From NCBI GenBank assembly GCA_009784185.1, contig WRCD01000005.1, positions 1,868 through 65,867 on the forward strand: DNA of 64,000 nt. The letters are read 5' to 3'. Positions 1 through 60,717 of the stretch are shown piece by piece; position 1 is the first letter of the stretch; each line of letters begins with the position of its first letter. This DNA is from Bacillota bacterium (GTDB lineage Bacteria; Bacillota; Clostridia; Christensenellales; UBA1242). Position numbers and translations under genes: made by a program. Below the pieces are notes generated by a model that saw nothing but the letters and a program-made list of their open reading frames with translations, was not told the origin of the DNA and made no database searches.

Positions 1-2628
1 GGTTGCTACCTCTTTCACATCTTGCTCAACTATTTTTTCTTTGGCTTTCAAAACCAGTGTAACGGCATCGTCTTTAATTTTCCGTGCTTCCTGAAGCGTT
101 TGTTCTTTTTCTTTCTGAACTTCCGCAACTGCCGCATCAATTTCTTTCTGATAGAAGGCTGCCATTTCGGTTTTTACTCTGGTAACCTCTTTTGAAATAG
201 CCCGGCCTATTATTGCTTCCCTCTCCTCTTTGGCTTTAGCGGAAGCAATCTTCTCTTTCTGAACTTCCGCCGCCATTTCCTTCTGCTCCCTCTCCAGCCT
301 GATGATTTTTGCCATCAATTCACCCCGTTCATGAGCAAGCTGTGCAGTCTGGCTGTTGTCCTCGTCCACGCACGCATAAGCCAGGAAGCTCTGGCGTCTT
401 TTCTTTATATACAATATCAAAATTATCAGCGAGCCAACCAGCAGCAGACTGGTTATAATACCACCCACAGTCATAAGTGTTACAACAAGCTTGCGCCCTT
501 CCCAGTCAGCTTGTATTTTGTTGAATTCGGCCTTTGCATTAGCTACGGCAACACCCAATGTGTAAGTAAAGTTTCCCCAGCTTACAAAATCTGTTTCTTC
601 TAATACCTCTAAAGCCTCATTATAAACTGCTTCCAACTGTTCTCTTATTGCTTCGTCGGAAATCAGATTTAACTTAGCATTGTACGCAACAAGAAGTTCG
701 TTTATCTGCCCCTGCCTGAAATCCTCTATATCAACCATCTCCATAGCGGCTTCCCAAGCATAATAGATTTCATCAAATCCCCAGATTGCGGCATTAATTA
801 CGGCTTCAATCTCATCAAAAAAGTCTATATAACTTTTAATTTCATATTCATCGTGGCCAATATCAATAAGCATTGTAAGAGTTGCTAGGTTTAGTTCAAC
901 AGCAGCACCTTCTGTTACATTATTAATTATATCTCTTGCAAACTGGCTTAGAGAACCAAATGTCAGTGAACCGGTTTCGTCCATAATAAGGTCATAAATT
1001 TCCTGAATATAACTCTTATAAAGGTCTGTTACCGAGTTTTCACGGTCCATAAACTCAATGTTATCTTTATACGAAAAGTTTATCATGTCTGCAGCAAACG
1101 TCTTTAGACGCACTTCGTAATTCATTGCCTGGTCCAACTCAAACACATCTGCCCACTCATAATATATTGCATCAAAACCGTGGATTGAACTGCTTATGGC
1201 TTTTAAAATTTCACCCGTAAAGGCTTTAATGGTATAGTCGGTTAATCTTATAGTAAATAATAAAATCAGGTCTTCCAAATAAGCTTTGTCCAGAGCCAGA
1301 TAGTTTTCCACACATGCCCCTTCCATAAACGAGCGGTTGTCTTCGTATGAAAAAGCTATCATCTCCAAGGCAAATTCTTTAAGCATTTCTTCGTACTCTC
1401 TGTCATCGGAATCGTATTCAAAAAATTCGTAATACAATTCGTCATAGCTTTCAAGCATTGCGGTTATAATGCCGAATACCTCGTCAAAAAACCCTTCAAG
1501 GTCATCGTAGTATTCATGTATGTCAAGCTGGTCAAAATCAAACATTGCTTGTAAATATATACTCTCAAGGTCCGAAAGCTCGCCGGCGTCCGCACCGTTG
1601 CTTTCAAAAATTTCTAAAAGCCCTTCAAAGCCCTCAAGGTCGTCCGGGTCACCGTAATACGCATAATCGGCAAGGCCTATTGCAAAATCAAGAAGATAAG
1701 CAGTGTAGGCGTACCAGTCATCAAATATAGGTTCGGCTCCGATTGCGGGATAACCTTCATCATCCATTCCCCAGAACAACAATCCCTCATAATCGCCTCC
1801 GGCCAGAAGGTCCAGCACATTGCGGTTAAGCTGCCGCACAAATTCAAGCCGGCCTTCCGTCTCCCAATCTTCCCATCCGTCAATATCATCAAGGCTGATA
1901 CAGTTTTCAATCACCGAACCGGAATCGGCAAGTCCTGCAATATTACCAACATAGCCGGCTGTTCCTGTTAACACCGCCTTATTAAAGCAGTTTATAATAA
2001 CCGAGTTTTCTATCTGACTGGCAATTGCGCCAACATATTGGTTCGGCCATCCTGCAACTTCGCCTGTGACTGTCAGGTTGCGGATTACTGCGTTTGATAT
2101 AACGCCAAACAAACCTATTATGGGATTCTGGCTGATGTTTGTGTTGAAGTTGTTTAAAATAATTGTTTTTCCATTGCCGTCAAATGTGCCTGTAAAAGGA
2201 TTTGCGGCTGTTCCTATAGCCCGGAAGGAGCCTGAGTAGTCGGAATGGTCAATGTCTTCGGTCAGGTAGATGGTTATGCCGTCAAAATCGACACCATGGA
2301 CGGTTACCGCAATCGTAAAATAAGCCATGCCTATAAAATCGTTTATCTGATAAGCATCCTGAGCATCGCTGTCCAAAACAACCTGCCAGTCTGTTGCAGA
2401 CGGACCGAGTATGGCAGCATTAAAAAGCGTGTTAATATTGGTAAGCCCGGTATAATCAGGAGCGGCCGGCACGGCAGCTTGCGTTTTTGTAACAGCCGGC
2501 ATATCAGCCCGGGCTGTCAGATTAAAAATTAGCGTATGCAAAACGGGTGCAGCAGCTATTGCAATGCACAGTAATGGCGCCAAAACAACTTGTTTTAAAT
2601 TTTTAAACCAATATCTTATGTGTTTCAT
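1..2628 (-). CDS. Modular surface-anchored protein, 3' end off-window: signal peptide, GLUG-like repeat domain, three acidic ~95-aa repeats, one TM helix, cytoplasmic coiled coil
   Basis: Absent from the ORF track because no stop lies in the window. My translation from the ATG at 2628 stays open to position 1. It reads MKHIRYWFKNLKQVVLAPLLCIAIAAAP, then GTFDGNGKTI, IGLFGVISNAVIRNLTV and VGAIASQIENSVIINC repeats, three acidic modules (YDELYYEF, FDAIYYEW, FDEIYYAW), LVVTLMTVGGIITSLLLVGSLIILILYIKKRRQ, and a K/E-rich tail. Confidence 0.75.
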   Translation of the reverse strand, partial: MKHIRYWFKNLKQVVLAPLLCIAIAAAPVLHTLIFNLTARADMPAVTKTQAAVPAAPDYTGLTNINTLFNAAILGPSATDWQVVLDSDAQDAYQINDFIGMAYFTIAVTVHGVDFDGITIYLTEDIDHSDYSGSFRAIGTAANPFTGTFDGNGKTIILNNFNTNISQNPIIGLFGVISNAVIRNLTVTGEVAGWPNQYVGAIASQIENSVIINCFNKAVLTGTAGYVGNIAGLADSGSVIENCISLDDIDGWEDWETEGRLEFVRQLNRNVLDLLAGGDYEGLLFWGMDDEGYPAIGAEPIFDDWYAYTAYLLDFAIGLADYAYYGDPDDLEGFEGLLEIFESNGADAGELSDLESIYLQAMFDFDQLDIHEYYDDLEGFFDEVFGIITAMLESYDELYYEFFEYDSDDREYEEMLKEFALEMIAFSYEDNRSFMEGACVENYLALDKAYLEDLILLFTIRLTDYTIKAFTGEILKAISSSIHGFDAIYYEWADVFELDQAMNYEVRLKTFAADMINFSYKDNIEFMDRENSVTDLYKSYIQEIYDLIMDETGSLTFGSLSQFARDIINNVTEGAAVELNLATLTMLIDIGHDEYEIKSYIDFFDEIEAVINAAIWGFDEIYYAWEAAMEMVDIEDFRQGQINELLVAYNAKLNLISDEAIREQLEAVYNEALEVLEETDFVSWGNFTYTLGVAVANAKAEFNKIQADWEGRKLVVTLMTVGGIITSLLLVGSLIILILYIKKRRQSFLAYACVDEDNSQTAQLAHERGELMAKIIRLEREQKEMAAEVQKEKIASAKAKEEREAIIGRAISKEVTRVKTEMAAFYQKEIDAAVAEVQKEKEQTLQEARKIKDDAVTLVLKAKEKIVEQDVKEVAT

Positions 2629-5225: not shown

Positions 5226-5314
5226 AATTCCCCTTTAAGATAAAGGGTGCCCCGGACTAGGGGCGGGGTACATACCCCGTCAGCTTCGCTGCCACCCCTC
5301 TCTAGAGGGGAATT
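5226..5314. repeat. Family-A repeat, inverted pair forming a long palindrome
   Basis: AATTCCCCTTTAAGATAAAGGGTGCCCCGGACTAGGGGCGGGGTA faces TACCCCGTCAGCTTCGCTGCCACCCCTCTCTAGAGGGGAATT. It lies just downstream of the rpsT stop. Confidence 0.85.
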
Positions 5315-6527: not shown

Positions 6528-6590
6528 AATTCCCCTTCTCCAAAGGGGGTTAACGCCGTCAGGCGGACGGGGTAGCCGCCGCAGACGCAG
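6528..6590 (+). repeat. Family-A repeat (long form with GACGGGGTAGCCGCCGC module)
   Basis: AATTCCCCTTCTCCAAAGGGGGTTAACGCCGTCAGGCGGACGGGGTAGCCGCCGCAGACGCAG. It runs into the glmS ribosome-binding region. Confidence 0.85.
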
Positions 6591-6598
6591 GAGGCAAT

Positions 6599-13631: not shown

Positions 13632-14888
13632 ATGGCTTTTTTTATTTTAGGTGCATATACCACTCCTATGATACCCGCAAGCACAATCACAGTTAGTGCA
13701 GATGCCCTAACACACAACGCAGTTACAATAAAAAGCCGGCTGCCCGCAAAAACCAAGCTTTGCGCCGTTGTAAAAGCAAATGCCTACGGGCATGGAGTAA
13801 AATTTGCCGTAACCACGCTGGAGCCGTACGCAGACTTTTTTGCCGCTGCCACCAACCATGAAGCACTGGAGGTGCGTAAACTAACCCAAAGGCCTACGCT
13901 GGTAATGGATTCGCTGAAAACATCTGCACTTGCTAAATGTTTAAAACAAAACATTCATATCTCTGTTTGCTCGCTAAACGAACTGAAAATACTGTTATCG
14001 GCTGCCAAAAAGGCAGGCACAACGGCTCAGGTTCATATCAAGCTAAACACCGGCATGAACAGGTTTGGGATTTCCGGCACAGATGAATTTAGCTGCTGCA
14101 TAAAACTCATTAAAAACCAGCCAACCCTTACACTGGCCGGTGTATATACTCATTTCGGTGCCGGTGATAACCCAAGCCACCCTCGCACGCACGGCCAAGC
14201 CAAGCGGTTTAAACAGTTTCTGGCAATACTCCCGCCGGAACTAAAACCAATAATACACGCTGCCAACACCGACACTGCGCTAAACTTCCCCCAATACGCA
14301 TTTGATATGGTTAGAGTTGGTATAGGATTATATGGGTATGGGTCAAGCACGAACCAAAATTCCCCTCCCTGGAGGGGTGGCGCAGAGCGCCGGGGTGGTT
14401 TTACCCCCGTACTTACTCTCACCTCCTACATCGCAGCCATCCAAACTGTAGCTAAAGGCCAATATATCGGCTACGGCACCGGCACAAGAGCAAAACGCAA
14501 TATGACTGTTGGCATAATCCCGCTTGGATACGCAGACGGCATTTCAAGGAGCTTATCCAACAAAGGCAAAGTAATTATATCCGGCTTACCCGCCCCTATA
14601 ATCGGCAATATCTGCATGGACAGTTTTACCGTTGACCTAACCGAAAATTCCCCAACTCCTGCGGGGTGGATGTCAAGCGTAGCGCAGACAGACGGGGTAG
14701 CCGCCGCCGAAGGCGGCGTAAAAACTTTGGCGGTCGGAACCCCCGTCACCATAATCGGCCCGGACCAAACCGCAGCCGACATAGCCGAAACACAAGGCAC
14801 TATAGCCTATGAAGTACTGACCGGTATTAATCATTGCAGAATAAATTATCAAACAAAAAATCCAAACAAAAAATCCCCTCTAAGTTAG
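13632..14888 (+). CDS. alr: Alanine racemase carrying two in-frame family-A repeat insertions
   Basis: PLP-lysine motif AVVKANAYGHG, then GIGLYGYG, PLGYADG, ICMDSFTVDLT and GTIAYEVLTGI. The ATG at 13632 lies inside the upstream terminator, so the true start may be the ATG at 13668. Confidence 0.85.
   Translation: MAFFILGAYTTPMIPASTITVSADALTHNAVTIKSRLPAKTKLCAVVKANAYGHGVKFAVTTLEPYADFFAAATNHEALEVRKLTQRPTLVMDSLKTSALAKCLKQNIHISVCSLNELKILLSAAKKAGTTAQVHIKLNTGMNRFGISGTDEFSCCIKLIKNQPTLTLAGVYTHFGAGDNPSHPRTHGQAKRFKQFLAILPPELKPIIHAANTDTALNFPQYAFDMVRVGIGLYGYGSSTNQNSPPWRGGAERRGGFTPVLTLTSYIAAIQTVAKGQYIGYGTGTRAKRNMTVGIIPLGYADGISRSLSNKGKVIISGLPAPIIGNICMDSFTVDLTENSPTPAGWMSSVAQTDGVAAAEGGVKTLAVGTPVTIIGPDQTAADIAETQGTIAYEVLTGINHCRINYQTKNPNKKSPLS
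14358..14400 (+). repeat. Family-A repeat inside alr, in frame
   Basis: AATTCCCCTCCCTGGAGGGGTGGCGCAGAGCGCCGGGGTGG, translated as NSPPWRGGAERRGG. Confidence 0.85.
14646..14725 (+). repeat. Family-A repeat (long form) inside alr, in frame
   Basis: AATTCCCCAACTCCTGCGGGGTGG..GACGGGGTAGCCGCCGCCGAAGGCGGCGTAAAAAC, translated as NSPTPAGWMSSVAQTDGVAAAEGGVKT. Confidence 0.85.
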
Positions 14889-14913
14889 AGGGGTGCCCAA
14901 CGGGCGGAGTGTG
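14871..14913 (+). repeat. Family-A repeat across the alr stop
   Basis: AAATCCCCTCTAAGTTAGAGGGGTGCCCAACGGGCGGAGTGTG. Confidence 0.8.
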
Positions 14914-16973: not shown

Positions 16974-17098
16974 AATTCCCCTTCTCCGAAGGGGTGGACG
17001 CGAAGCGGACGGGGTAGCCGCCGCCAAAGGCGGCGCAAAAACTCGGATTACCACAACCCCCGGCGCTCTGCGCCACCCCCTTAGCTTAAGGGGGAATT
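16974..17098. repeat. Family-A repeat, inverted pair (long form + short form)
   Basis: AATTCCCCTTCTCCGAAGGGGTGGACGCGAAGCGGACGGGGTAGCCGCCGCCAAAGGCGGCGCAAAAAC ... CGCCACCCCCTTAGCTTAAGGGGGAATT. Confidence 0.85.
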
Positions 17099-23391: not shown

Positions 23392-23424
23392 CGGATTTTA
23401 GAGAAATTAAAACACTTTTTCATA

Positions 23425-23469
23425 TACCCCGTCGGCTCCGCCGCCACCCCTTTATCTTAAAGGGGAATT
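23425..23469 (-). repeat. Family-A repeat (reverse orientation)
   Basis: TACCCCGTCGGCTCCGCCGCCACCCCTTTATCTTAAAGGGGAATT. Confidence 0.85.
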
Positions 23470-25825: not shown

Positions 25826-25869
25826 AATATTCCCCTCTGCAAGAGGGGCGCCCGAAGGGCGGGGTGTGG
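25826..25869 (+). repeat. Family-A repeat
   Basis: AATATTCCCCTCTGCAAGAGGGGCGCCCGAAGGGCGGGGTGTGG. Confidence 0.85.
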
Positions 25870-25921
25870 TTAATGGGTTTATTGTAACAGATTTCTAGCC
25901 TGTTGGCAAGCAAAAGAATGT

Positions 25922-25962
25922 AATTCCCCTAGCCACGGAGGGGTGCCCGAAGGGCGGGGTGG
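25922..25962 (+). repeat. Family-A repeat
   Basis: AATTCCCCTAGCCACGGAGGGGTGCCCGAAGGGCGGGGTGG. Confidence 0.85.
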
Positions 25963-25973
25963 TTTAAAACAAA

Positions 25974-33357: not shown

Positions 33358-33417
33358 AATTCTCCCTTCCCGCCAAGGGAGTACGCCCGGAGGGCGGGGT
33401 GGTTTAAAAGGGGAATT
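33358..33417. repeat. Family-A repeat
   Basis: AATTCTCCCTTCCCGCCAAGGGAGTACGCCCGGAGGGCGGGGTGGTTTAAAAGGGGAATT. Confidence 0.8.
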
Positions 33418-33857: not shown

Positions 33858-33981
33858 AATTCCCCTTTATGAAGGGGTGGATGCGCCATAGGCGCAGACG
33901 GGGTAGCCGTCACCAAAGGTGGCGCAAAAGCTTTTTCACATACCCCGCCCTTCGGGCACCCCTTTATCTTAAAGGGGAATT
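33858..33981. repeat. Family-A repeat, inverted pair (long + short form)
   Basis: AATTCCCCTTTATGAAGGGGTGGATGCGCCATAGGCGCAGACGGGGTAGCCGTCACCAAAGGTGGCGCAAAAGC ... TACCCCGCCCTTCGGGCACCCCTTTATCTTAAAGGGGAATT. Confidence 0.85.
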
Positions 33982-35266: not shown

Positions 35267-35340
35267 GCGGGCGTAGCTTAATGGTAAAGTTCCAGCCTTC
35301 CAAGCTGGCTATGTGAGTTCGATTCTCATCGCCCGCTCCA
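35267..35340 (+). tRNA. tRNA-Gly (TCC)
   Basis: Acceptor GCGGGCG/CGCCCGC, anticodon loop CTTCCAA, CCA encoded. Confidence 0.9.
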
Positions 35341-35346
35341 AAATTT

Positions 35347-35421
35347 AGGGGTGTAGCCAAGCGGTAAGGCTCCAGACTCTGACTCTGGCATGCGGAGGTT
35401 CAAATCCTTCCACCCCTGCCA
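35347..35421 (+). tRNA. tRNA-Gln (CTG)
   Basis: AGGGGTGTAGCCAAGCGGTAAGGC.., anticodon loop CTCTGAC, CCA. Confidence 0.9.
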
Positions 35422-35430
35422 ACAATTTAT

Positions 35431-35507
35431 GGTGGATATAGCTTAGCAGGTAGAGCGCCAGGTTGTGGCCCTGGAGGTCGTGGGTTCGAATCCCACTATT
35501 CACCCCA
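35431..35507 (+). tRNA. tRNA-His (GTG) with encoded G-1
   Basis: Extra 5' G, anticodon loop TTGTGGC, T-arm GTGGGTTCGAATCCCAC, CCA. Confidence 0.9.
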
Positions 35508-35523
35508 CTATTCGCCCCGATGT

Positions 35524-35600
35524 GCGCCCGTAGCTCAGCAGGATAGAGCAACGCCCTTCTAAGGCGTAGGTCGGGGGTTCGACTCCCTCCGGGCGTGCCA
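35524..35600 (+). tRNA. tRNA-Arg (TCT)
   Basis: GCGCCCGTAGCTCAGCAGGATAGAGC.., anticodon loop CTTCTAA, CCA. Confidence 0.9.
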
Positions 35601-35603
35601 TAT

Positions 35604-35679
35604 GACCCATTAGCTCAGTCGGTAGAGCACTTGACTTTTAATCAAGTTGTCCCGCGTTCGAATCGCGGATGGGTCACCA
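35604..35679 (+). tRNA. tRNA-Lys (TTT)
   Basis: GACCCATTAGCTCAGTCGGTAGAGC.., anticodon loop CTTTTAA, CCA. Confidence 0.9.
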
Positions 35680-35689
35680 AGAAACTCTA

Positions 35690-35772
35690 GCGGATGTGGC
35701 GAAATTGGCAGACGCGCCAGACTTAGGATCTGGTGGGCAACCGTGGGGGTTCAAGTCCCTCCATCCGCACCA
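35690..35772 (+). tRNA. tRNA-Leu (TAG)
   Basis: Type-II tRNA GCGGATGTGGCGAAATTGGCAGACGC.., anticodon loop CTTAGGA, long variable arm, CCA. Confidence 0.9.
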
Positions 35773-35889
35773 ACATAGTCCTAAGGTTGGAGGACTTGAA
35801 CGGGCAAGGGCGCTGCCGGCGGCAGATGAAGCCCGCAGCCCAGGCGTGAAAGTGCCGAAGGCACGGAGCAAGTCCCTCCATCCGCACCA
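35773..35889 (+). other. Structured ~96-nt insert followed by an exact 21-nt duplicate of the tRNA-Leu 3' end
   Basis: CAAGTCCCTCCATCCGCACCA occurs at 35752-35772 and again at 35869-35889. An inverted partial copy GGAGGACTTGAAC at 35789-35801 can pair with the second copy. Internal hairpins are CTGCC-ggc-GGCAG and GTGCC-gaa-GGCAC. Confidence 0.7.
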
Positions 35890-36050
35890 ATGCAGTTATA
35901 AGGTGTATGACCGCAGGCGGTCATACAACCCGTCGGCGCTCGCAAACGAGCACTGCGTGCCCGCAATTTTTGAAAATCTGTTTTTGTCCGCAAGCGCCCA
36001 AAAGCAAATTTTCACAATTTGCGCGCTTCGCGTTGGATTTGCTCGCTTCT

Positions 36051-36125
36051 AGGGGTGTAGCCAAGCGGTAAGGCACAAGACTTTGACTCTTGCACGCGTT
36101 GGTTCAAATCCAGCCACCCCTGCCA
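36051..36125 (+). tRNA. tRNA-Gln (TTG)
   Basis: AGGGGTGTAGCCAAGCGGTAAGGC.., anticodon loop CTTTGAC, CCA. Confidence 0.9.
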
Positions 36126-36708: not shown

Positions 36709-37941
36709 ATGTACATGAACAACACTAAAATTGCATCAGCCAGACCCAGATACACTAAAAGCACACTTGCACTGGGTGCAAGCGTTTTAGATTATTGCGG
36801 AGTAAAAACAAAACTGCCTAAGCTTGGCAGGGTTAGGTCTGCTCTGAAGAAAAACTACAAAAACGTTGTGTTTTTAATTTTGGACGGCCTCAATACATTA
36901 AGTCTGCAGGAGCTTCTGCCGGCCGATTCTCTTCTCAGAAAAAACCTGAAAGGCAGCCTGACATCGGTTTTCCCGTCTACAACCGCGTGCGGTTTAACCA
37001 CTTTGTTTACGGCAGGCTACCCTGCTGCGAATGGCTGGCTGGGGCAAAAGATGTACATAGAGCAACTAGATAAGGTTATTGACATATACAAAAACACCTG
37101 CGCATACACCGGAGTCAGCCTTAAAGACGATGACTATTACGAGAGCTATCTGCCGCCTGCTACCATATTTTCTCAAATTGAAGCCATGCAGAAACCACAA
37201 ATAAAAATACATACCCTTACCCCGCAAAAAACCCGTAACATTGCCGAAAACAACTATTACTACTCCGACATGGCCGAAATGTATACGGTGCTTAACAAAA
37301 TGACCCGGCAAAACGGCAGAAAAGCAATTATTGCGTATGCACCGCATTTGTCTAAAGCAATGAGCACCCATGGCACAGCTTCGGGCCAAGCCGAAGCAGT
37401 TCTGCAAGAACATGAACTGTATTTAGCCGAACTGATGGAAAAAGCCGGTGATACATTGTTTATTGTGTCGTCCGGCCACGGAATGATTAATATCCAAAAC
37501 AACATCCATTTAGAAGACTATCCGGAAATCTGTGCTACATTCAACAGACCTCCGTCCGTTTGCAGCCGCGCAATCAGCTTTGGAATAAACAAGTTAAGCC
37601 GCAAACAATTTGCGCGTCTGTTTAACCACCACTTCAGCACGGATTTTAAACTGTACACTGCAAAACAAATAGTTGCCGGCGGCTTGCTTGGTAAAGATGC
37701 TTGTCCGTGTCTGGATTTACTTATAGGCGATTTTATTGCAGTTGCAAAAGCCAACTCTGCAATGCATTACAAAACACCCAAAGGGGTTGAGCCGAAAATT
37801 ACAATAGCCTCCAGCGGCGGACTCTCCAAACAGGAAATGCTTTTACCGTTAATAATTTTTGGAAAGAAAAAGAAATCCAGTAAAAAGAAAGCGCCTCAAA
37901 ATTCCCCTTCCCTGCGAAGGGGTGGCAAGCCGAAGGCTTGA
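36709..37941 (+). CDS. Alkaline-phosphatase-superfamily phosphodiesterase / nucleotide pyrophosphatase-like protein
   Basis: VVFLILDGLNTLSL and SVFPSTTACGLTTLFTAGYPAANGW give the metal-binding Asp and nucleophile Thr region. The last ~15 aa (NSPSLRRGGKPKA) are read from a family-A repeat. Confidence 0.7.
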   Translation: MYMNNTKIASARPRYTKSTLALGASVLDYCGVKTKLPKLGRVRSALKKNYKNVVFLILDGLNTLSLQELLPADSLLRKNLKGSLTSVFPSTTACGLTTLFTAGYPAANGWLGQKMYIEQLDKVIDIYKNTCAYTGVSLKDDDYYESYLPPATIFSQIEAMQKPQIKIHTLTPQKTRNIAENNYYYSDMAEMYTVLNKMTRQNGRKAIIAYAPHLSKAMSTHGTASGQAEAVLQEHELYLAELMEKAGDTLFIVSSGHGMINIQNNIHLEDYPEICATFNRPPSVCSRAISFGINKLSRKQFARLFNHHFSTDFKLYTAKQIVAGGLLGKDACPCLDLLIGDFIAVAKANSAMHYKTPKGVEPKITIASSGGLSKQEMLLPLIIFGKKKKSSKKKAPQNSPSLRRGGKPKA

Positions 37942-37970
37942 CGGGGTAGCCGCCGCCAAACGCGGCGCAA
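37900..37970 (+). repeat. Family-A repeat (long form) overlapping the 3' end of the phosphodiesterase ORF
   Basis: AATTCCCCTTCCCTGCGAAGGGGTGGCAAGCCGAAGGCTTGACGGGGTAGCCGCCGCCAAACGCGGCGC. Confidence 0.85.
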
Positions 37971-46336: not shown

Positions 46337-46468
46337 AATTCCCCTCTATAAGAGGGGTGGATACGACCGAGTAAAACGAGAGAGTAGACGGGGTGTGGCA
46401 GTAAAGCAATCAGTTTGAGCAACCACACCCCGTCGGCTGCGCCGCCACCCCTCTTATAGAGGGGAATT
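46337..46468. repeat. Family-A repeat, inverted pair with ~50-nt centre
   Basis: AATTCCCCTCTATAAGAGGGGTGGATACGACCGAG..GACGGGGTGTGGCAG...CCACACCCCGTCGGCTGCGCCGCCACCCCTCTTATAGAGGGGAATT. Confidence 0.85.
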
Positions 46469-47039: not shown

Positions 47040-47100
47040 GTGTTGTGTTCTCCTAGGCCTTATATTATCAAAGTACCACAAAAAACACAAGCAGATTAAA

Positions 47101-47139
47101 CCACCCCGCCCTTTGGGCACCCCTCCAAGGAGGGGAATT
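47101..47139 (-). repeat. Family-A repeat (reverse orientation)
   Basis: CCACCCCGCCCTTTGGGCACCCCTCCAAGGAGGGGAATT. Confidence 0.85.
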
Positions 47140-49555: not shown

Positions 49556-49673
49556 AATTCCCCTCTACAAGAGGGGTGCCACGGAGTGGCGGGGTGTGGT
49601 TGGTTGAAAAGTCTTTGCGCAGCCACACCCCGTCAAACCTGACGGTTTGCCACCCCTCTTATAGAGGGGAATT
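49556..49673. repeat. Family-A repeat, inverted pair
   Basis: AATTCCCCTCTACAAGAGGGGTGCCACGGAGTGGCGGGGTGTGG ... CCACACCCCGTCAAACCTGACGGTTTGCCACCCCTCTTATAGAGGGGAATT. Confidence 0.85.
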
Positions 49674-51027: not shown

Positions 51028-51088
51028 AATTCCCCTTTTATGAAGGGGTGGCAGCCGCAGGCTGACGGGGTAGCCGCCCGAAGGGCGC
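51028..51088 (+). repeat. Family-A repeat (long form)
   Basis: AATTCCCCTTTTATGAAGGGGTGGCAGCCGCAGGCTGACGGGGTAGCCGCCCGAAGGGCGC. Confidence 0.85.
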
Positions 51089-51178
51089 ATAACCTTATGA
51101 AATCATACCAAATTAAACTACAAAACACAATTAAAACATCTTATAAAATATTCCATTCCACCGAAGTTCCGTTATCAT

Positions 51179-51222
51179 ATACCCCGCCGCTTCGTGGCAC
51201 CCCTTTATCTTAAAGGGGAATT
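51179..51222 (-). repeat. Family-A repeat (reverse), overlapping the 3' end of the feoB-like ORF
   Basis: ATACCCCGCCGCTTCGTGGCACCCCTTTATCTTAAAGGGGAATT. Confidence 0.85.
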
Positions 51223-52622: not shown

Positions 52623-52664
52623 AATTCCCCTCTATAAGAGGGGTGCCCGAAGGGCGGGGTGTGG
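52623..52664 (+). repeat. Family-A repeat
   Basis: AATTCCCCTCTATAAGAGGGGTGCCCGAAGGGCGGGGTGTGG. Confidence 0.85.
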
Positions 52665-52671
52665 ATAAAAG

Positions 52672-53160
52672 TCACTGTTCTTTGTTACCTGTTCCTTGTT
52701 CACTGAATATCATATTCTCAAACTCATTAAGGAAACTTACAAAGTTGTTTATATCCTTAAACTTCCTGTATACACTGGCAAACCGCACGTAAGCAACTTC
52801 ATCCAGTTTTTTCAGCGCATCCATAACCGCCTCGCCAATTATGCTGGACTTTACCTCCTGCTCCAAGCCGTTGTGTATCTGCTTTTCAATGTCGTTTACA
52901 ATTTTATCAATCTGCCCCATTGTAATCGGACGCTTTTCGCAAGCCTTAATAATACCATGCTTAATCTTGTCACGCTCAAACGGCTGACGCGAACCATCGG
53001 ATTTAATAACCAAAATCGGTACCGTCTCCACAGTCTCATATGTGGTAAACCGCTTCCCGCAAGTTAAGCACTCGCGCCTCCGCCTTATTGAGTTCTGTTC
53101 ATCGGTTGCGCGTGAATCAATAACCTTACTGTCATCATGCCCGCAATAAATACATTTCAT
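52672..53160 (-). CDS. nrdR: Transcriptional repressor NrdR (zinc ribbon + ATP-cone)
   Basis: [42 protein letters not shown]. The last ~10 aa (EQGTGNKEQ) are read from heptamer array D4. Confidence 0.9.
52673..52703 (+). repeat. Heptamer array D4
   Basis: CACTGTTC TTTGTTA CCTGTTC CTTGTTC AC. Confidence 0.8.
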
Positions 53161-53225: not shown

Positions 53226-53344
53226 AATTCCCCTTACTTTACTTTCGCCACACCCCGCCACTAAAAGGGGCAGTCCGGAGTGTCGGGGGATGTGATTTGC
53301 GAAGGCACCTAACAGACCCTGACAGCTCCGGACTGCCCCTTTTG
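53226..53344 (+). repeat. Degenerate family-A unit followed by family-B long hairpin (copy B3)
   Basis: AATTCCCCTTACTTT..CACCCCGCC, then stem AAAAGGGGCAGTCCGGAGTGTCG, loop GGGGATGTGATTTGCGAAGGCACCTAACAGACC, stem CTGACAGCTCCGGACTGCCCCTTTT. Confidence 0.85.
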
Positions 53345-54982: not shown

Positions 54983-55094
54983 AATTCCCCCTTGAGCCAA
55001 GGGGGTGGCACGAAGTGCCGGGGGTTGTGGTAAATTAACATAACACAACCCTCCCCGCTAGGCTAGCGGTACTCCCTTAGCTTAAGGGAGAATT
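54983..55094. repeat. Family-A repeat, inverted pair
   Basis: AATTCCCCCTTGAGCCAAGGGGGTGGCACGAAGTGCCGGGGGTTGTGG ... CCTCCCCGCTAGGCTAGCGGTACTCCCTTAGCTTAAGGGAGAATT. Confidence 0.85.
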
Positions 55095-57838: not shown

Positions 57839-57935
57839 AATTCCCCTCTCAGCCCCGCGTCTCTGCTGGCGTGAATGGGCTGGGCGCTACGGCTAAGTTG
57901 TTAGGGGTGGCAAGCCATAAGGCTTGACGGGGGTG
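57839..57935 (+). repeat. Family-A repeat (expanded first hairpin), preceded by GGAGCGCAAGCGACC at 57816-57830
   Basis: AATTCCCCTCTCAGCCCCGCG..GGGCTGGGCG..TTAGGGGTGGCAAGCCATAAGGCTTGACGGGGGTG. Confidence 0.75.
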
Positions 57936-57939
57936 TATG

Positions 57940-60717
57940 TTAAACCAAATCGGTGGCAAAAACCTTCAGTTCCGGGTAATAACTTTCGGTTGCAGTATTG
58001 AGGCGTTTAATCCATGCGCTGCTCGGTCCACTGCCCAAGCCGGTCATGTACATATCCAGCGTGCCGGTTATCAGCATCTGACTCGTTGTAAGTGCACCGG
58101 TGGTTCCGGTCACATTGCCTATTTGCGGCCCGCTGAAAACCGTGGAATTGTAATAAGTGTTTGAAATAGTAATACTGCCGTCTCTTCTGCCAACAATTCC
58201 GCCGCGATTGCTGCCGGTAGCCGTTAAGACGCCCCTGTTATAACAACTTGTTATTACGGCATTTGTAGCCGCAACACCCGCAATACCGCCAACCTGACTA
58301 ACGCCCGTTACGGCACCTGCATTATAACTGTCTATTATTGTGCCCGAAACATTGTATCCTACAATACCACCTGTGTGACCGGGTGCACCTGCACCTGTGG
58401 TTTGAATATGCCCCGTGTTGTAACAGTTTGTAATTGTCATAACACCGTCTATGCCGCCCACAATTCCGCCGCTGCCGCCGCCGTTTAGGCCGCCTTGAGA
58501 TACATTGCCTGTGTTATAACTGTTCATTATTTTTGCATTTGCAGAAAACGGAGCAGCACGAAGCCCGGCAATACCTCCGGCATTGTCTGCGGTAGCTGTA
58601 ACTATGCCTGTATTATAACTGCTTGAAATTACAGCCGAGCCAAGCAAATGCCCTACTATACCACCCGCACCGTTGATTGATACAATTGTGGCAGAGTTGG
58701 ATGTGTTGGTTATAGTGCTTGTGCCCAGAGCACCACCTGCTATTCCGCCAGCCCCGTACATTGGGTTTCTGATATAACCGTCTTTTACATTAACGTTTGA
58801 AACTGCGGCATTTTCTATTGCTCCAAACAACCCGGCCCCGCTGGATTCGTTAACATAAAGGCCAAACACCGAATTGTTCCTGCCGTCAAACCTTGCCTTA
58901 AACGTCGTGGTTGAGTTTCCTATCGGCGCCCATTGCTCAAGCCCGGTGGTTGTTGGCCCCCAGCTCTGCCAGCCGGAAGTATTGTTTAGGGTAATACTTG
59001 CAGTTAGTGCGTAATACTTGGTGCTGGAGTTGAAATTACCGCCGTTTACAGTGTCCGGAAGATTATTGTTAATTACAAAACTAAACCACTCTAACTGAGC
59101 CTTATTAGATATTAAGTACGGACTTTGTTGCGTACCTGTACCACCCGCAAAAACACCTGCTATTGTTATTGAAAAGGCTCTTTCTGCAAATCTGGTAGTT
59201 GTAGCGTTAGTTACTCTTATTGTAAAGTTAAAAGTGCCGGCTGTATTAGGTGTTCCGCTAATTACTCCCGTTGCCGCAGCAATTGATAAGCCGCCCGGCA
59301 AACTGCCGCTGACCACTGTTCGGTTTAAGGTGCCGGCTTCTGCGCAAGTGGCAGCAATTGTTTGGTTATAGGTCGCATTAACCGTGCCGCCCGGCAAAGG
59401 TGAGGTGGTTGTAATAACTACAGGTGCAGCCTGGTAAACAAATCTTGGATAAACCGTTGTAATCCAACTCTCATAAGTTACTCCCGATGGAGGACTTACA
59501 GTTGGGTTGTTTTTCCACGCATTAAGGGCTGTAAGAAGGGTTTGACCGTTGTATCCGTTATTATTCTGAGTTATCGTTCCTGATGTGTTAAATTGGTCAA
59601 TAGTACCGCTTCCGCCACCGGAGAGATTATGAACCGAATCCGTAAGAAAATAACATGCCGTAACGTTTGCTGCGGTTGCATTTCCCGCAATGCCGCGGGT
59701 TGAACCAAAATAACCGGTCATGGTTCCGGTATTGTAACTGTTTCTTATCGAACCGGATGTTCTGCCCGCAATGCCGCCGGTAGTAGAAGAAGGGTTACTT
59801 GAGCTTCCTGAGCCTTGCACTGCACCTGAGTTGTAGCAGTTTAGTATACGGCAGTTAGTACTGCTTATGGTTCCCGCAATGCCGCCGGTATTATGTGTTT
59901 GAATACTATTGTCATTGTAGGCCACATTACCGGCATTATAACAGTTTATTATGGTAACAACCTGGTTGCTGGAGGCTGCCACCGAACCTACAATGCCGCC
60001 TATCTGACTAACCGCGCCTCCTTCTATGCGTCGCCCAGAAACCAATATGTTATAGCAGCTATCAATTACAGTGTTGGTTGCATTTACTATAGTGCCTACT
60101 ATACCGCCAACATCGCCTGTACTAAGCAATGTTAGGCCATTATGACTGTTTTTTATTGTACAAGCACCTGTTGCATAACCTACTATGCCTCCCGTTGCGT
60201 TGCCTGCTCTAATATAACCCCTTGTAACTCCAACGTTGGAAATTGTAGCGCCGTTTATATAGCCGAATAAGCCTTGAAAGGTAGCTGTTGTACTGATATA
60301 AACTCCGTAAACACTGTAATGTTTGCCGTCAAAATTTGCTCTAAAGTTGTTGGTGTTGTTCCCAATCGGCGTCCATGAATTTAGTCCGGTTGTTGACGGA
60401 CCCCAGCTTGTCCAGTTGGCGGTATTGTTTAGTGTAATATTTTGAGTGAGTTCATAGTAATGACTCGAGGTATTACCTATGTTGGCATTTATTTCTTGTC
60501 TCATACGCGCTAACTGTTCGGCTGTTGTAATCTTCCACGGGTTGGCTTGTGTGCCTGCACCACTGGCAAATGAGCCCGCAATGGTGCCGTTCCATACTGG
60601 GGAATCGTTAGCCAGTGTTGTGCTAACAAAAAACACCATAAGCGGTGTCATAACCAATGCGAACAAAAAAGCAAGCAATCCGGCAATACTTATCGGCCTG
60701 TTTACATATTGCGGCAT
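57940..60717 (-). CDS. Large GLUG-repeat surface protein with a central Ig-like (He_PIG-type) domain; internally duplicated
   Basis: N-terminal anchor helix. Dozens of GGI(V/A)G-type repeats spaced about 22 aa apart. The central segment LPGGTVNATYNQTIAA..GSLPGGLSIAAATGVISGTPNTAGTFNFTIRVTN is Ig-like. Two halves begin with GAGTQANPWKITTAEQL and GGTGTQQSPYLISNKAQL. Confidence 0.8.
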   Translation of the reverse strand: MPQYVNRPISIAGLLAFLFALVMTPLMVFFVSTTLANDSPVWNGTIAGSFASGAGTQANPWKITTAEQLARMRQEINANIGNTSSHYYELTQNITLNNTANWTSWGPSTTGLNSWTPIGNNTNNFRANFDGKHYSVYGVYISTTATFQGLFGYINGATISNVGVTRGYIRAGNATGGIVGYATGACTIKNSHNGLTLLSTGDVGGIVGTIVNATNTVIDSCYNILVSGRRIEGGAVSQIGGIVGSVAASSNQVVTIINCYNAGNVAYNDNSIQTHNTGGIAGTISSTNCRILNCYNSGAVQGSGSSSNPSSTTGGIAGRTSGSIRNSYNTGTMTGYFGSTRGIAGNATAANVTACYFLTDSVHNLSGGGSGTIDQFNTSGTITQNNNGYNGQTLLTALNAWKNNPTVSPPSGVTYESWITTVYPRFVYQAAPVVITTTSPLPGGTVNATYNQTIAATCAEAGTLNRTVVSGSLPGGLSIAAATGVISGTPNTAGTFNFTIRVTNATTTRFAERAFSITIAGVFAGGTGTQQSPYLISNKAQLEWFSFVINNNLPDTVNGGNFNSSTKYYALTASITLNNTSGWQSWGPTTTGLEQWAPIGNSTTTFKARFDGRNNSVFGLYVNESSGAGLFGAIENAAVSNVNVKDGYIRNPMYGAGGIAGGALGTSTITNTSNSATIVSINGAGGIVGHLLGSAVISSSYNTGIVTATADNAGGIAGLRAAPFSANAKIMNSYNTGNVSQGGLNGGGSGGIVGGIDGVMTITNCYNTGHIQTTGAGAPGHTGGIVGYNVSGTIIDSYNAGAVTGVSQVGGIAGVAATNAVITSCYNRGVLTATGSNRGGIVGRRDGSITISNTYYNSTVFSGPQIGNVTGTTGALTTSQMLITGTLDMYMTGLGSGPSSAWIKRLNTATESYYPELKVFATDLV

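What the first reader, a model, noticed from the sequence alone, without database searches (positions are those of the whole stretch)
5226..5314. Family A: a modular two-hairpin repeat at 21 loci in 64 kb, with compensatory changes in the second stem
The unit is AATTCCCCT-loop-AGGGGTG (hairpin 1), then GGGGTG-[variable stem-loop]-CGGGGT(G/A), sometimes extended by AGCCGCCGCC-aaa-GGCGGCG. Loci: 5226, 6528, 14358, 14646, 14871, 16974, 23425, 25826, 25922, 33358, 33858, 37900, 46337, 47101, 49556, 51028, 51179, 52623, 53226, 54983, 57839. It occurs in both orientations and often as head-to-head pairs forming 90-130-nt palindromes. The middle stem differs between copies but stays complementary: CCCGAAGGG, CCACGGAGTGG, GCACGAAGTGC, CAAGCCGAAGGCTTG, CAGCCGCAGGCTG, GCGCAGAGCGC, CCCCGGACTAGGGG. 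This means the structure is conserved rather than the sequence. Most copies sit just after stop codons or between convergent and divergent genes. Some lie inside ORFs. I cannot name the family.
Basis: seen in the sequence. Interest (0 to 1): 0.6.

Follow-up and report, generated by a model that had tools for sequence, protein, structure and literature searches.

The report
Hairpin repeats of a nuclease-encoding selfish element
The 45-base two-hairpin repeat that litters this Clostridia contig is the gene-less form of a small selfish DNA element found in more than twenty bacterial phyla; its complete form carries one gene, a Vsr-like (DUF559) endonuclease, and I found no description of it in the literature searched.

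Summary
A covariance model finds 25 full-length units in 64 kb, and AATTCCCCT occurs 23 times against 0.66 expected. Hairpin 2 covaries strongly.

The repeat is not specific to this genome. The same unit, AATTCCCCTCC-loop-GGAGGGGTG-[variable hairpin]-CGGGGTGGT, occurs in more than 20 phyla. It forms both terminal inverted repeats of a compact element of about 440-550 bp. That element's only ORF is a DUF559/Vsr-like PD-(D/E)XK endonuclease.

I tested the link in reverse. Of 80 metagenome loci fetched by DUF559 protein similarity alone, 69 carry the left repeat, 71 the right and 62 both. A cultured Francisella philomiragia carries a complete copy.

The window has no DUF559 gene. Its copies are therefore non-autonomous: 7 inverted pairs and 12 solos. 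The closest relative has none in 21.5 kb of syntenic DNA.

Four features point to DNA hairpins rather than a functional RNA:
- G·T pairs are almost absent.
- Loops are mostly C-GNA-G.
- Units occur in both orientations.
- Some are inserted in frame inside genes.

That the nuclease mobilises the repeats is an inference. No target-site duplication or empty site was found. Rfam and the literature searched hold nothing matching.

The parts
5226..5272 (+). Unit (hairpin 1 + hairpin 2), left half of the inverted pair 5226-5314. Degenerate: AGGGT replaces AGGGGT.
   Evidence: CM R1 14.9 bits, E 0.019; sequence read.
5271..5314 (-). Unit, right half of the pair 5226-5314. Hairpin 2 is GGCAGCGAAGCTGAC.
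   Evidence: CM 41.4 bits, E 7.8e-12.
6528..6576 (+). Solo unit with a partial third module. It ends 23 nt upstream of the glmS start codon.
   Evidence: CM 31.3 bits.
14358..14399 (+). Solo unit inside the alanine racemase ORF, read in frame as NSPPWRGGAERRGG. It lies in a loop that is 7 aa longer than in solved homologues.
   Evidence: CM 44.3 bits; alignment to PDB Alr 8zpe/5irp; Pfam.
14646..14701 (+). Solo unit with the third module, inside the alanine racemase ORF near its C terminus, read in frame.
   Evidence: CM 33.0 bits.
14871..14913 (+). Degenerate solo unit overlapping the alanine racemase stop codon.
   Evidence: CM 17.0 bits, E 0.003.
16974..17018 (+). Unit, left half of the pair 16974-17098.
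   Evidence: CM 53.6 bits.
17016..17035 (+). Example of the third module (AGCCGCCGCCAAAGGCGGCG). This lineage-specific internal hairpin follows the units at 6528, 14646, 16974, 33858, 37900 and 51028. All six are on the + strand.
   Evidence: Sequence; all 7 AGCC tails come from the window.
17053..17098 (-). Unit, right half of the pair 16974-17098.
   Evidence: CM 25.8 bits.
23423..23469 (-). Solo unit between two - strand genes.
   Evidence: CM 36.9 bits.
25828..25870 (+). Solo unit (TATTCCCC variant), in direct orientation with the next unit.
   Evidence: CM 32.4 bits.
25922..25963 (+). Solo unit. Hairpin 2 is GCCCGAAGGGC.
   Evidence: CM 33.3 bits.
33358..33417 (+). Degenerate unit (33358-33403) followed by the last 11 nt of an inverted partner (AAAGGGGAATT). 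This looks like a pair with an internal deletion.
   Evidence: CM 21.6 bits; sequence.
33858..33907 (+). Unit, left half of the pair 33858-33981, followed by a third-module variant.
   Evidence: CM 41.4 bits.
33939..33981 (-). Unit, right half of the pair 33858-33981.
   Evidence: CM 26.0 bits.
37900..37950 (+). Solo unit with the third module. The upstream ORF 36709-37941 ends inside it. An ordinary terminator-like hairpin follows.
   Evidence: CM 50.1 bits.
46337..46397 (+). Unit, left half of the pair 46337-46468. Hairpin 2 region is 31 nt.
   Evidence: CM 39.3 bits.
46424..46468 (-). Unit, right half of the pair 46337-46468. Hairpin 1 is identical to its partner; hairpin 2 is different.
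   Evidence: CM 49.0 bits.
47100..47139 (-). Solo unit just downstream of spoIVA.
   Evidence: CM 43.0 bits.
49556..49600 (+). Unit, left half of the pair 49556-49673, between der and plsY.
   Evidence: CM 35.6 bits.
49624..49673 (-). Unit, right half of the pair 49556-49673.
   Evidence: CM 47.0 bits.
51028..51074 (+). Unit, left end of the 195-bp pair 51028-51222.
   Evidence: CM 65.1 bits. This unit was one of the 24 seed sequences.
51178..51222 (-). Unit, right end of the pair 51028-51222.
   Evidence: CM 24.0 bits.
52623..52663 (+). Solo unit.
   Evidence: CM 36.8 bits.
54983..55028 (+). Unit (CCCCC variant), left half of the pair 54983-55094.
   Evidence: CM 28.1 bits.
55045..55094 (-). 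Degenerate unit, right half of the pair 54983-55094.
   Evidence: CM 13.6 bits, E 0.052; sequence.
57839..57945 (+). Unit with about 55 nt inserted in the hairpin-1 loop. Hairpin 2 is GGCAAGCCATAAGGCTTGAC.
   Evidence: Sequence; partial CM match 57895-57936, 11 bits, E 0.42.
53226..53262 (+). Probable decayed fragment: AATTCCCCT followed by CCACACCCCG. It abuts a different repeat family.
   Evidence: Sequence only; not found by the CM.

Best explanation
The window repeats are non-autonomous copies of the terminal repeat of a widespread selfish DNA element. They occur as solo units and as inverted pairs. The complete element is about 440-550 bp and has three parts: a left repeat, one ORF encoding a 120-140 aa DUF559/Vsr-like PD-(D/E)XK endonuclease, and a right repeat that also encodes the last ~14 codons of that ORF.

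Shown:
- The unit in the window is the same as the repeats flanking DUF559 genes in many phyla.
- The association is reciprocal and tight.
- The window itself has no DUF559 gene.
- The closest relative lacks the repeats.
- Presence differs between Francisella species at one locus.
- The hairpins are constrained as Watson-Crick palindromes on both strands.

Inferred:
- The nuclease recognises the folded repeat in DNA. The features it reads would be the conserved hairpin 1, the two GGGGT blocks, and any hairpin 2 with a G-C / G·A base.
- It cuts there or at a target.
- Host repair then copies units, pairs or whole elements into new sites.
- Gene-less copies are mobilised in trans, as REPINs are by RAYTs and MITEs by their parent insertion sequences.
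- Cross-phylum spread is by horizontal transfer; some copies lie on predicted viral contigs.

In this genome the copies probably have secondary effects on transcripts, because the outward-facing hairpin 1 followed by AATTTT looks like a terminator. I do not think that is why they exist.
For: 1. The family is real. The CM gives 25 units in the window and 192 in 100 foreign loci.

2. Cross-phylum distribution. I estimated about 19 chance hits by hand. Many loci hold several copies. Hits include isolates of Chryseobacterium spp., Pedobacter, Flavobacterium, Bacteroides rodentium, Serratia microhaemolytica and Daejeonia.

3. The only recurrent neighbouring gene is DUF559. All-against-all clustering of 731 flanking ORFs shows this. 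tblastn finds it in 8 of 120 pattern loci and not in the window. Pfam PF04480 matches at E 1.7e-29.

4. Clean element architecture is visible in L114, L077 and L080.

5. Reciprocal test. Of 80 loci fetched by protein patterns alone, 69 have the left repeat, 71 the right and 62 both. The left repeat typically ends 1-10 nt before the ORF. The right repeat overlaps its 3' end.

6. Element sizes are bimodal: 105-195 bp without an ORF and 435-550 bp with one.

7. There are at least 3005 DUF559 cluster representatives at E <= 1e-20. Core residues are invariant. The model folds as a Vsr-like nuclease. Best matches are 3hrl, the homing endonuclease I-Bth0305I, AbaSI/PvuRts1I and Vsr.

8. Cultured example. 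F. philomiragia has CM hits at 1447-1496(+) and 1851-1900(-) around the gene at 1501-1887. The orthologous site in Francisella sp. LA112445 holds only a 28-bp hairpin-1 palindrome with the same loop. There is nothing at this site in Pseudofrancisella aestuarii or F. frigiditurris.

9. The nearest relative of the window organism (SpoIVA 72% identical) has 0 units in 21.5 kb of synteny.

10. The signature is of DNA, not RNA. G·T pairs are 1.7% of stem cells. C-GNA-G triloops dominate. Units occur in hosts of 33-67% GC.

11. Strand bias in the window. 13 of 15 orientable insertions have the G-rich strand on the + strand. These are 10 of 12 solos and all 3 asymmetric pairs. GC skew is uniformly negative. 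The counts come, and the two-sided binomial p of about 0.007 is my hand calculation. Orientation relative to transcription is only 7:5. This hints at a mechanism coupled to single-stranded DNA or to replication.
Against: - No nuclease activity or specificity is known for any member of this DUF559 clade.
- A PD-(D/E)XK nuclease alone cannot carry out strand transfer. The copying step is therefore hypothetical.
- No target-site duplication was found beyond the palindromic AATT at the ends.
- No clean empty site was recovered.
- About 70% of units in foreign loci, and 12 of 26 in the window, are solo. A simple two-ended transposon model does not explain this.
- Hairpin 2 differs completely between units that share an identical hairpin 1, loop included. 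No known transposition mechanism predicts that.
- I could not establish whether this genome encodes a DUF559 gene at all. Only 64 kb of it was seen, and attempts to walk along the contig failed.
- The clade was not found on plasmids in PLSDB or in GenBank phages. The transfer vehicle is therefore unclear.
Confidence: 0.65

Rival explanations
1. The DUF559 gene is a passenger. On this view it is a homing-type endonuclease gene that invades pre-existing palindromic repeat pairs, cutting between the two halves and being copied in using the halves as homology arms. The repeats themselves spread by some other, unknown route.
For: - The gene always sits exactly between two inverted units.
- Gene-less pairs have only 20-40 nt between the halves.
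- The nearest characterised structural relative is a homing endonuclease, I-Bth0305I.
- Eleven copies sit at one recurrent position in HsdR genes.
- Gene-less units far outnumber genes.
Against: - No other candidate enzyme recurs next to units in 200 loci.
- The right repeat is fused to the ORF's C terminus, and the left repeat supplies the sequence immediately upstream of the start codon. This suggests long co-evolution, not opportunistic invasion.
- The same unit sequence accompanies the gene across phyla although the proteins are only 50-80% identical.
- This rival still makes the window repeats part of the same selfish system.
Confidence: 0.2
2. The units are functional RNA elements, selected for their RNA structure: transcription terminators, attenuators, or sites of mRNA stabilisation or processing.
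For: - Both helices covary strongly.
- Most window copies lie just after stop codons, inside operon spacers.
- Hairpin 1 read outwards is followed by AATTTT, and these sites top the terminator-like list. In 44-58 kb there are 31 sites against 15.9 +/- 3.6 expected, about 9 of them hairpin 1.
Against: - No Rfam family matches.
- G·U pairs are almost absent where all four Watson-Crick pairs occur freely.
- GNA triloops closed by C-G are, from my own knowledge, the hallmark of stable DNA mini-hairpins and not of RNA.
- Orientation relative to transcription is 7:5.
- About 14% of units sit in frame inside ORFs.
- The same unit flanks a nuclease gene in organisms with very different transcription signals.
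- The T-run comes from the host flank and is not conserved in other genomes.
- The closest relative manages without any copies in the syntenic region.
Confidence: 0.08
3. This is a classical REP/REPIN family mobilised by a RAYT (an IS200/IS605-type Y1 HUH transposase) encoded elsewhere in the genome. On this view DUF559 is coincidental.
For: - The populations are similar: solo units, inverted doublets, high density in intergenic spacers.
- The lineage-specific third module is a GTAG-tagged palindrome, GGGGTAG-CCGCCGCC-AAA-GGCGGCG. That resembles the GTAG-tagged REPs of PMC3733652.
- The strand bias is reminiscent of single-strand transposition.
Against: - No Y1 transposase appears among recurrent neighbours in 200 loci.
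- The gene flanked by inverted units is DUF559 in 62-71 of 80 independent loci.
- According to PMC3116915 and bioRxiv 10.1101/2021.07.10.451892, REP sequences are lineage-specific and vertically inherited. This unit is conserved across phyla.
- The general consensus has no GTAG or CGTC tag.
Confidence: 0.04

Closest known systems
REP / REPIN sequences with their RAYT transposases (PMC3116915, PMC3479197, PMC3733652)
   Same: - Short GC-rich hairpin units at high copy in intergenic spacers.
- Solo units plus inverted doublets.
- The associated enzyme gene is itself flanked by inverted units.
- The hairpin is recognised as structure.
- Gene-less copies are presumably mobilised in trans.
   Different: - The flanked gene is a PD-(D/E)XK Vsr-like nuclease (DUF559), not a Y1 HUH transposase.
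- The unit has two hairpins with long invariant blocks and no GTAG or CGTC tag.
- The same unit sequence is shared across more than 20 phyla, whereas REPs are lineage-specific.
- Many copies, including the nuclease gene itself, are inserted in frame in proteins.
Rickettsia palindromic elements (RPE), as summarised in PMC10969869
   Same: Palindromic repeats that insert in frame into unrelated protein-coding genes and are translated as extra peptide segments. No transposase of a known type is associated.
   Different: RPEs are about 100-150 bp, confined to Rickettsia, and have no associated enzyme gene. Here the unit is 45 nt, pan-bacterial, and has an autonomous nuclease-encoding form. I did not test sequence similarity to RPEs, because no RPE sequences were available.
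MITEs derived from insertion sequences, for example Correia/NEMIS (PMC10969869, PMC3184786)
   Same: Two terminal inverted repeats with little between them. They share ends with a longer ORF-bearing element, lie in intergenic spacers, and can act as terminators.
   Different: The parent carries no DDE, serine or tyrosine transposase. No target-site duplication is detectable. Single ends are the commonest form.
Vsr-like homing endonucleases (I-Bth0305I, PMC3239194) and the solved DUF559 protein 3hrl
   Same: They share the nuclease fold: Foldseek gives 3hrl E 2e-6 and 3r3p E 5e-4. The genes are selfish and free-standing. There is recurrent insertion at one position of a conserved gene, HsdR.
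   Different: This element does not sit in an intron or intein. It is bounded by structured inverted repeats and is accompanied by a large population of gene-less repeats at unrelated sites.
Integron attC sites (from my own knowledge)
   Same: Recombination sites whose stems vary freely in sequence but stay paired, with short conserved blocks and unpaired bases. They are recognised as folded single-stranded DNA.
   Different: The sequence is unrelated, the partner enzyme is a tyrosine recombinase, and attC sites are not dispersed repeats.

Membership tests
REP/REPIN-RAYT | Short palindromic units at high copy, mainly extragenic, as singlets and inverted doublets | tested here: met
   25-26 units in 64 kb, 7 inverted pairs, mostly in gene spacers.
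REP/REPIN-RAYT | Associated Y1 HUH transposase (RAYT) gene flanked by the units | tested here: not met
   The flanked gene is DUF559 (PF04480) in 62-71 of 80 loci. No other recurrent neighbour appears among 731 flanking ORFs. The window's ORFs were not all scanned against Pfam, and the rest of the genome was not available.
REP/REPIN-RAYT | GTAG or CGTC tetranucleotide tag at one end of the palindrome (PMC3733652) | tested here: not met
   The consensus ends are AATTCCCC and CGGGGTGGT. Only the lineage-specific third module reads GTAG + palindrome.
IS-derived MITE | Terminal inverted repeats shared with an autonomous element | tested here: met
   The same ~45-nt ends bound gene-less elements of 105-195 bp and ORF-bearing elements of 435-550 bp.
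IS-derived MITE | Target-site duplication flanking each copy | tested here: inconclusive
   No direct repeat is visible beyond the palindromic AATT. The outermost base varies at the right end. Three full elements have long imperfect host duplications of 38-88 nt. No clean empty site was obtained.
IS-derived MITE | Parent encodes a recognised transposase (DDE, HUH, serine or tyrosine) | tested here: not met
   The only ORF is a Vsr-like PD-(D/E)XK nuclease.
Rickettsia palindromic elements | In-frame insertion into protein-coding genes with read-through translation | tested here: met
   Window alr at 14358 and 14646. 26 of 187 foreign units lie inside long open frames. 27-29 of 85 DUF559 copies are embedded in host ORFs.
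Rickettsia palindromic elements | Sequence homology to RPE families | not tested
One pattern hit was in a Rickettsiales MAG (L056).
Homing endonuclease gene (Vsr-like/EDxHD type) | Nuclease gene housed in a self-splicing intron or intein at a single conserved target | tested here: not met
   No intron or intein family was detected in 5 of the foreign loci (Rfam). Insertions lie at many unrelated intergenic and genic sites.
Structured non-coding RNA family (Rfam) | Match to a curated covariance model | tested here: not met
   The window gives only tRNAs at gathering score. Only noise appears at E <= 10. Nothing is found at units in 5 foreign loci.
Intrinsic terminator | GC-rich hairpin followed directly by a U-tract on the transcribed strand | tested here: inconclusive
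   Hairpin 1 read outwards is followed by AATTTT in many window copies and is picked up by the scan. However, two A's intervene, the T-run lies in the host flank, and it is not conserved elsewhere. No transcript data were available.

The most novel reading that the evidence does not exclude
This is a previously unrecognised class of prokaryotic mobile element. Its only protein is a small Vsr-like PD-(D/E)XK nuclease that recognises a DNA-hairpin terminal repeat. It propagates by nuclease-induced breaks and host repair, not by transposase-catalysed strand transfer. It crosses phylum boundaries, and perhaps domain boundaries. It is built as an in-frame cassette, so it can live inside host proteins, restriction-modification enzymes among them. 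Its second hairpin is rebuilt, not copied, when units multiply, which would explain why that hairpin is hypervariable.
Probability: 0.35. Interest if true: 0.9.

Novelty: new variant of a known kind. Interest (0 to 1): 0.8.

Why it matters
If the DUF559 link is functional, three things follow.

First, a large 'domain of unknown function' family gets a role. There are at least 3005 cluster representatives in this clade alone, annotated only as 'endonuclease domain-containing protein' or 'very-short-patch-repair endonuclease'.

Second, a second, enzymatically unrelated solution to the REP/RAYT lifestyle is identified.

Third, a mobile DNA is revealed whose ~45-nt recognition module is conserved from Firmicutes to Bacteroidota, Proteobacteria, CPR bacteria and possibly archaea.

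There are practical consequences too:
- The units create spurious ORFs and peptide insertions (NSPPLEGW..., ...HPAL.GTPP.EGN) in annotated proteins.
- They break metagenome assemblies.
- They probably explain why DUF559 proteins were flagged as targets of 'programmed inversions' (PMC9881135).
- They sit inside restriction-modification genes, where they could alter defence.

Several cultured hosts make the hypothesis directly testable: Francisella philomiragia, Serratia microhaemolytica, Chryseobacterium spp. and Daejeonia.

Tried and rejected
- **Rfam.** Gathering and permissive E-value searches of the window and of foreign loci gave only tRNAs, Flavo-1 elsewhere, and miRNA noise.
- **Cyanobacterial HIP1 (GCGATCGC).** Zero copies.
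- **Literature search by sequence strings.** Only eukaryotic or HIV hits.
- **Literature search by name.** Searches for DUF559, COG2852, ycjD, Vsr-like and mobile terms found nothing describing this element.
- **Short target-site duplication.** None beyond AATT. Long flank duplications occur in only a few copies and may be repeat-mediated tandem duplications.
- **Nested copies.** These show junctions inside hairpin 2 (L131, L201) but no clean insertion boundaries.
- **Empty site from the closest relative.** The spacers are too diverged to align.
- **Empty site in Francisella.** The left flank is not orthologous. One species holds only a hairpin-1 palindrome, and two have unrelated or minimal spacers.
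- **Hairpin-1-only palindromes as a common footprint.** Only 2 in 1.58 Mb.
- **Walking along the 112.9-kb source contig to look for a DUF559 gene.** Three look-ups returned 'not on record'.
- **Plasmids and phages as carriers.** Only distant DUF559 homologues (36-45% identity) on 7 plasmids, none in GenBank phages. IMG/VR does hold 37 stretches with units, one with a full element.
- **Chance.** Excluded by shuffles and CM E-values.
- **A G-quadruplex or mirror-repeat reading of the two GGGGT blocks.** Considered, but not testable here.
Full report
**1. The observation**

The window is 41-47% GC with uniformly negative GC skew. It comes from a sporulating Clostridia-type organism: SpoIVA, ComEC, GlmS, Der and Alr are present, along with sigE/sigG and plsY. 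The source is a 112.9-kb metagenome contig, ENA ERZ27257304.

At 5226-5314 the sequence reads as the finding says. AATTCCCCT occurs 23 times, against 0.66 expected and a shuffle maximum of 3. All 21 listed loci show the modular pattern.

I built a covariance model from 24 units, 23 of them from other organisms. It finds 25 full-length units in the window, 16 on the + strand and 9 on the - strand. One more unit, at 57839, has a long insertion in the hairpin-1 loop. Seven inverted pairs of 89-195 bp exist. The remaining 12 units are solo. Two bare 9-mer matches, at 31146 and 53719, are not units.

**2. Anatomy**

A unit is about 40-60 nt and has these parts:
- AATT.
- Hairpin 1: CCCCT(C/T)(C/T)-loop-(G/A)(G/A)AGGGG.
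- TG.
- Hairpin 2.
- (A)CGGGGT(G/A)GT.

Hairpin 2 comes in a short class (GCCC-GAA-GGGC) and a long class. The long class has a G-C base, then a conserved G·A mismatch, then a free stem of 4-10 bp or more.

Across 380 distinct units from all sources there are 242 different hairpin-2 sequences of 9-46 nt. Variation increases towards the loop. All four Watson-Crick pairs are common at the inner positions.

On the CM alignment of 144 distinct foreign units:
- 98.2% of cells pair.
- 242 cells carry changes on both sides, against 61 +/- 6 in shuffles (0 of 500 reach this).
- The covariation score is 0.313, against <= 0.072 when partners are slid.

That alignment is fitted to the model. The alignment-free outer-in count is independent of it and gives 84% against 38%.

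G·T pairs are only 25 of 1443 stem cells. 148 of 216 parsable loops are triloops, 110 of them GNA. 86% of the hairpins are closed by C-G. From my own knowledge, C-GNA-G is the signature of unusually stable DNA mini-hairpins, whereas RNA helices that vary this freely normally show many G·U pairs.

**3. The repeat is not specific to this genome**

I scanned one genome per species for AATTCCCCT-N4-14-AGGGGTG-N6-30-CGGGGT. My hand estimate for chance is about 19.

The hits span many groups:
- Bacteroidota, including about 15 Chryseobacterium isolates, Pedobacter albus, Flavobacterium omnivorum and Bacteroides rodentium.
- Pseudomonadota, including Serratia microhaemolytica.
- Bacillota, Verrucomicrobiota, Planctomycetota, Chlamydiota and Cyanobacteria.
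- Patescibacteria, Acidobacteriota, Nitrospirota, Nitrospinota and Chloroflexota.
- Ignavibacteriota, Thermotogota, Deferribacterota, Desulfobacterota and Actinomycetota.
- Cloacimonadota, Spirochaetota and others.

Many loci carry several copies. Many hits are termite-gut or rumen MAGs from different phyla. Host GC ranges from 33% to 67%, while the unit stays at about 65% GC.

**4. What it belongs to**

I clustered the 731 ORFs that lie next to units in these loci. Apart from artefactual ORFs translated from the repeat itself, only one family recurs. It is a 120-160 aa protein with LPYNPKLK...DFDRQKIIGNYIVDFYC...VIEIDGSSH. This is Pfam DUF559 (PF04480, E 1.7e-29). NCBIfam calls it 'DUF559 domain-containing protein'. 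The only solved sequence relative is 3hrl.

In L114 (Serratia), L077 (Daejeonia) and L080 the architecture is unambiguous. A left unit is followed by a few to about 80 nt, then the ORF. An inverted right unit overlaps the ORF's last codons and encodes ...HPAL.GTPP.EGN.

The reciprocal test used two peptide patterns from the protein alone to fetch 80 metagenome loci. 69 have a left unit, usually ending 1-10 nt before the ORF. 71 have a right unit overlapping its end. 62 have both. Several of the failures lie at contig ends.

Bounded elements fall into two size classes: 105-195 bp without an ORF and 435-550 bp with one. The start codon typically lies 5-6 nt after CGGGGTGGT. The conserved G-run may therefore double as a ribosome-binding site; this is an inference.

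The clade has at least 3005 cluster representatives at E <= 1e-20, from Francisella, Parcubacteria, Desulfuromonadales, Oscillospiraceae and an Aenigmarchaeota MAG. Presumed catalytic residues are invariant.

An AlphaFold model (pLDDT 83) matches 3hrl, the homing endonuclease I-Bth0305I, the nuclease domains of AbaSI/PvuRts1I, and Vsr.

A cultured isolate, F. philomiragia, has a perfect copy with CM hits on both sides of the gene. So does one IMG/VR contig.

The window itself contains no DUF559 gene (tblastn).

**5. Evidence that the family moves**

The closest relative of the window organism has 72% SpoIVA identity; the next is 70% and the rest are <= 61%. It keeps the sigG-nrdR-der-plsY-spoIVA synteny, yet has no unit in 21.5 kb. 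The corresponding part of the window holds about ten.

Upstream of galM in Francisellaceae the picture varies by species:
- F. philomiragia has the full element.
- Francisella sp. LA112445 has only AATT-CCCCTTC-ATAAAT-GAAGGGG-AATT, with the same loop as the right-end hairpin 1 of the full element.
- Pseudofrancisella aestuarii and F. frigiditurris have nothing.

This shows gain and decay. It does not give a clean empty site, because the left flanks are not orthologous.

No short target duplication is visible beyond the palindromic AATT. Three full elements carry 38-88-nt imperfect duplications of host sequence at their flanks.

**6. In-frame life style**

In the window's alanine racemase, unit 14358 is translated as NSPPWRGGAERRGG in a surface loop. 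Unit 14646 adds about 30 residues near the C terminus.

Elsewhere, 26 of 187 units lie in frames that stay open for at least 60 codons on both sides. 27-29 of 85 DUF559 copies are embedded, in frame, in large host proteins:
- One recurrent position in HsdR, seen in 11 loci.
- Eco57I-like enzymes.
- HsdS.
- DNA methylases.
- A fumarase-like protein.
- A QueA-like protein.

This may underlie the statistical enrichment of 'DUF559 domain-containing protein', together with restriction-modification methylases, among predicted targets of programmed inversions (PMC9881135).

**7. How it probably works**

Established: the window copies are gene-less members of a family whose complete form is a nuclease gene between two structured inverted repeats. 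The hairpins are constrained as Watson-Crick palindromes.

The rest is inference. The nuclease recognises the folded repeat in DNA, using the conserved hairpin 1, the GGGGT blocks, and any hairpin 2 with the right base. It makes a break, and host repair copies units or whole elements.

A weak hint points to a single-strand or replication-coupled step. 13 of 15 orientable insertions in this single-replichore window have the same strand orientation. Orientation relative to transcription is only 7:5. The counts are, and the binomial p of about 0.007 is my own calculation.

Nested or duplicated copies have their junctions inside hairpin 2. Units that share an identical hairpin 1, loop included, can have entirely different hairpin 2 sequences. 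This suggests that hairpin 2 is a break-and-rebuild site. That is speculation.

**8. Rivals**

*DUF559 as a homing gene.* The nuclease gene could be invading pre-existing palindromes. This cannot be excluded, and it still places the window repeats in the same system.

*An RNA function.* This is disfavoured by the pair statistics, the loop types, the lack of orientation bias with respect to transcription, the in-frame copies and the absence of units in the nearest relative. Even so, hairpin 1 read outwards plus AATTTT is terminator-like: 31 sites against 15.9 expected in 44-58 kb, about 9 of them hairpin 1. Secondary effects on transcripts are therefore plausible.

*A RAYT-driven REP family.* This is disfavoured because no Y1 transposase recurs near units. 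The third module does happen to be a GTAG-tagged palindrome.

**9. Prior knowledge**

Rfam 15 has nothing. The 25 papers that mention DUF559 do not describe such an element. The large PD-(D/E)XK survey lists Vsr/DUF559 with 'No HGT observed' (PMC3424549). A 2024 review of prokaryotic MITEs does not mention it (PMC10969869).

The closest concepts are REP/REPIN-RAYT (PMC3116915, PMC3479197), RPEs and IS-derived MITEs. I cannot exclude a description in literature outside the searchable library.

**10. Verdict**

The finding is real and correctly described. The structure is best read as a DNA hairpin belonging to a widespread nuclease-associated selfish element that appears to be undescribed. The mechanism is unproven.

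Noticed in passing
window 53265-53341 and 55917-55991 (+): A second repeat family of about 77 nt. It has a conserved 45-nt core (CGGGGGATGTGnTTTGCGAAGGCACnTAACAGACCCTG) enclosed by AAAGGGG-[variable stem]-CGGAG ... CTCCG-[stem']-CCCCTTT. The outer stem differs between the two copies but stays complementary. There is no Rfam match and no exact core match in IMG/VR.
   Followed up: partly
window 56780-56905 and 52665-52700: Arrays of GTAACAG/GGAACAG-like heptamers in inverted orientation, with 30-nt arms 87% complementary. A shorter similar run lies directly after unit 52623.
   Followed up: no
window 35267-36125: A cluster of seven tRNA genes (Gly, Gln, His, Arg, Lys, Leu, Gln) on the + strand.
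   Followed up: no
window 6528-6598: The spacer upstream of glmS (which starts at 6599) is almost entirely filled by a unit. Rfam calls no glmS ribozyme anywhere in the window.
   Followed up: no
window, all solo units and the asymmetric pairs: Strand bias. 10 of 12 solo units, and all six units that carry the third module, are on the + strand of a window with uniformly negative GC skew. Orientation relative to the flanking genes is only 7:5.
   Followed up: partly
L142, L147, L154, L157, L161, L163, L185, L187, L194, L195, L097: The whole DUF559 element sits in frame at one recurrent position of type I restriction enzyme HsdR genes, just upstream of the GSGKS helicase motif. The resulting ORFs are 1230-1310 aa. 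This could be a homing-like target or an old domesticated insertion.
   Followed up: partly
L160 and L199: Complete DUF559 elements are inserted in frame in housekeeping-type genes: a class II fumarase/aspartase-like gene and a queA-like gene. Each adds about 150-200 residues. Whether these host proteins still work is unknown.
   Followed up: no
L242 2996-3640 (Aenigmarchaeota MAG, GCA_021161725.1): A DUF559 element lies at the 5' end of an N6/N4 methyltransferase gene. It is flanked by an 88-nt imperfect direct duplication of the host gene's start region, so the nuclease ORF borrows the host start codon. Similar 65- and 38-nt flank duplications occur in L132 and L176.
   Followed up: partly
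L243 2175-2202 (Francisella sp. LA112445, CP041030.1): A 28-bp palindrome, AATTCCCCTTCATAAATGAAGGGGAATT, lies at the site where F. philomiragia has the full element. It has the same loop as that element's right-end hairpin 1. It may be a deletion or excision footprint. Such hairpin-1-only forms are rare: 2 in 1.58 Mb of fetched loci.
   Followed up: yes
L049 1860-2770 and 4720-5230: In one restriction-modification gene the units are interleaved with a shorter inverted variant that lacks hairpin 2 (translated TTPAPPKEGN) and with STEKIQNA repeats. A host segment of about 95 aa is duplicated between units. This suggests repeat-mediated tandem duplication inside the gene.
   Followed up: no
units from all sources: The hairpin-1 variant and the 3' tail co-vary. 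CCCCTCC...GGAGGGG goes with ...GGGGTGGT, and CCCCTTC...GAAGGGG goes with ...GGGGTAGT. This is a mirror-like relation, not a base-pairing one. It may reflect two subfamilies or a symmetric protein contact.
   Followed up: no
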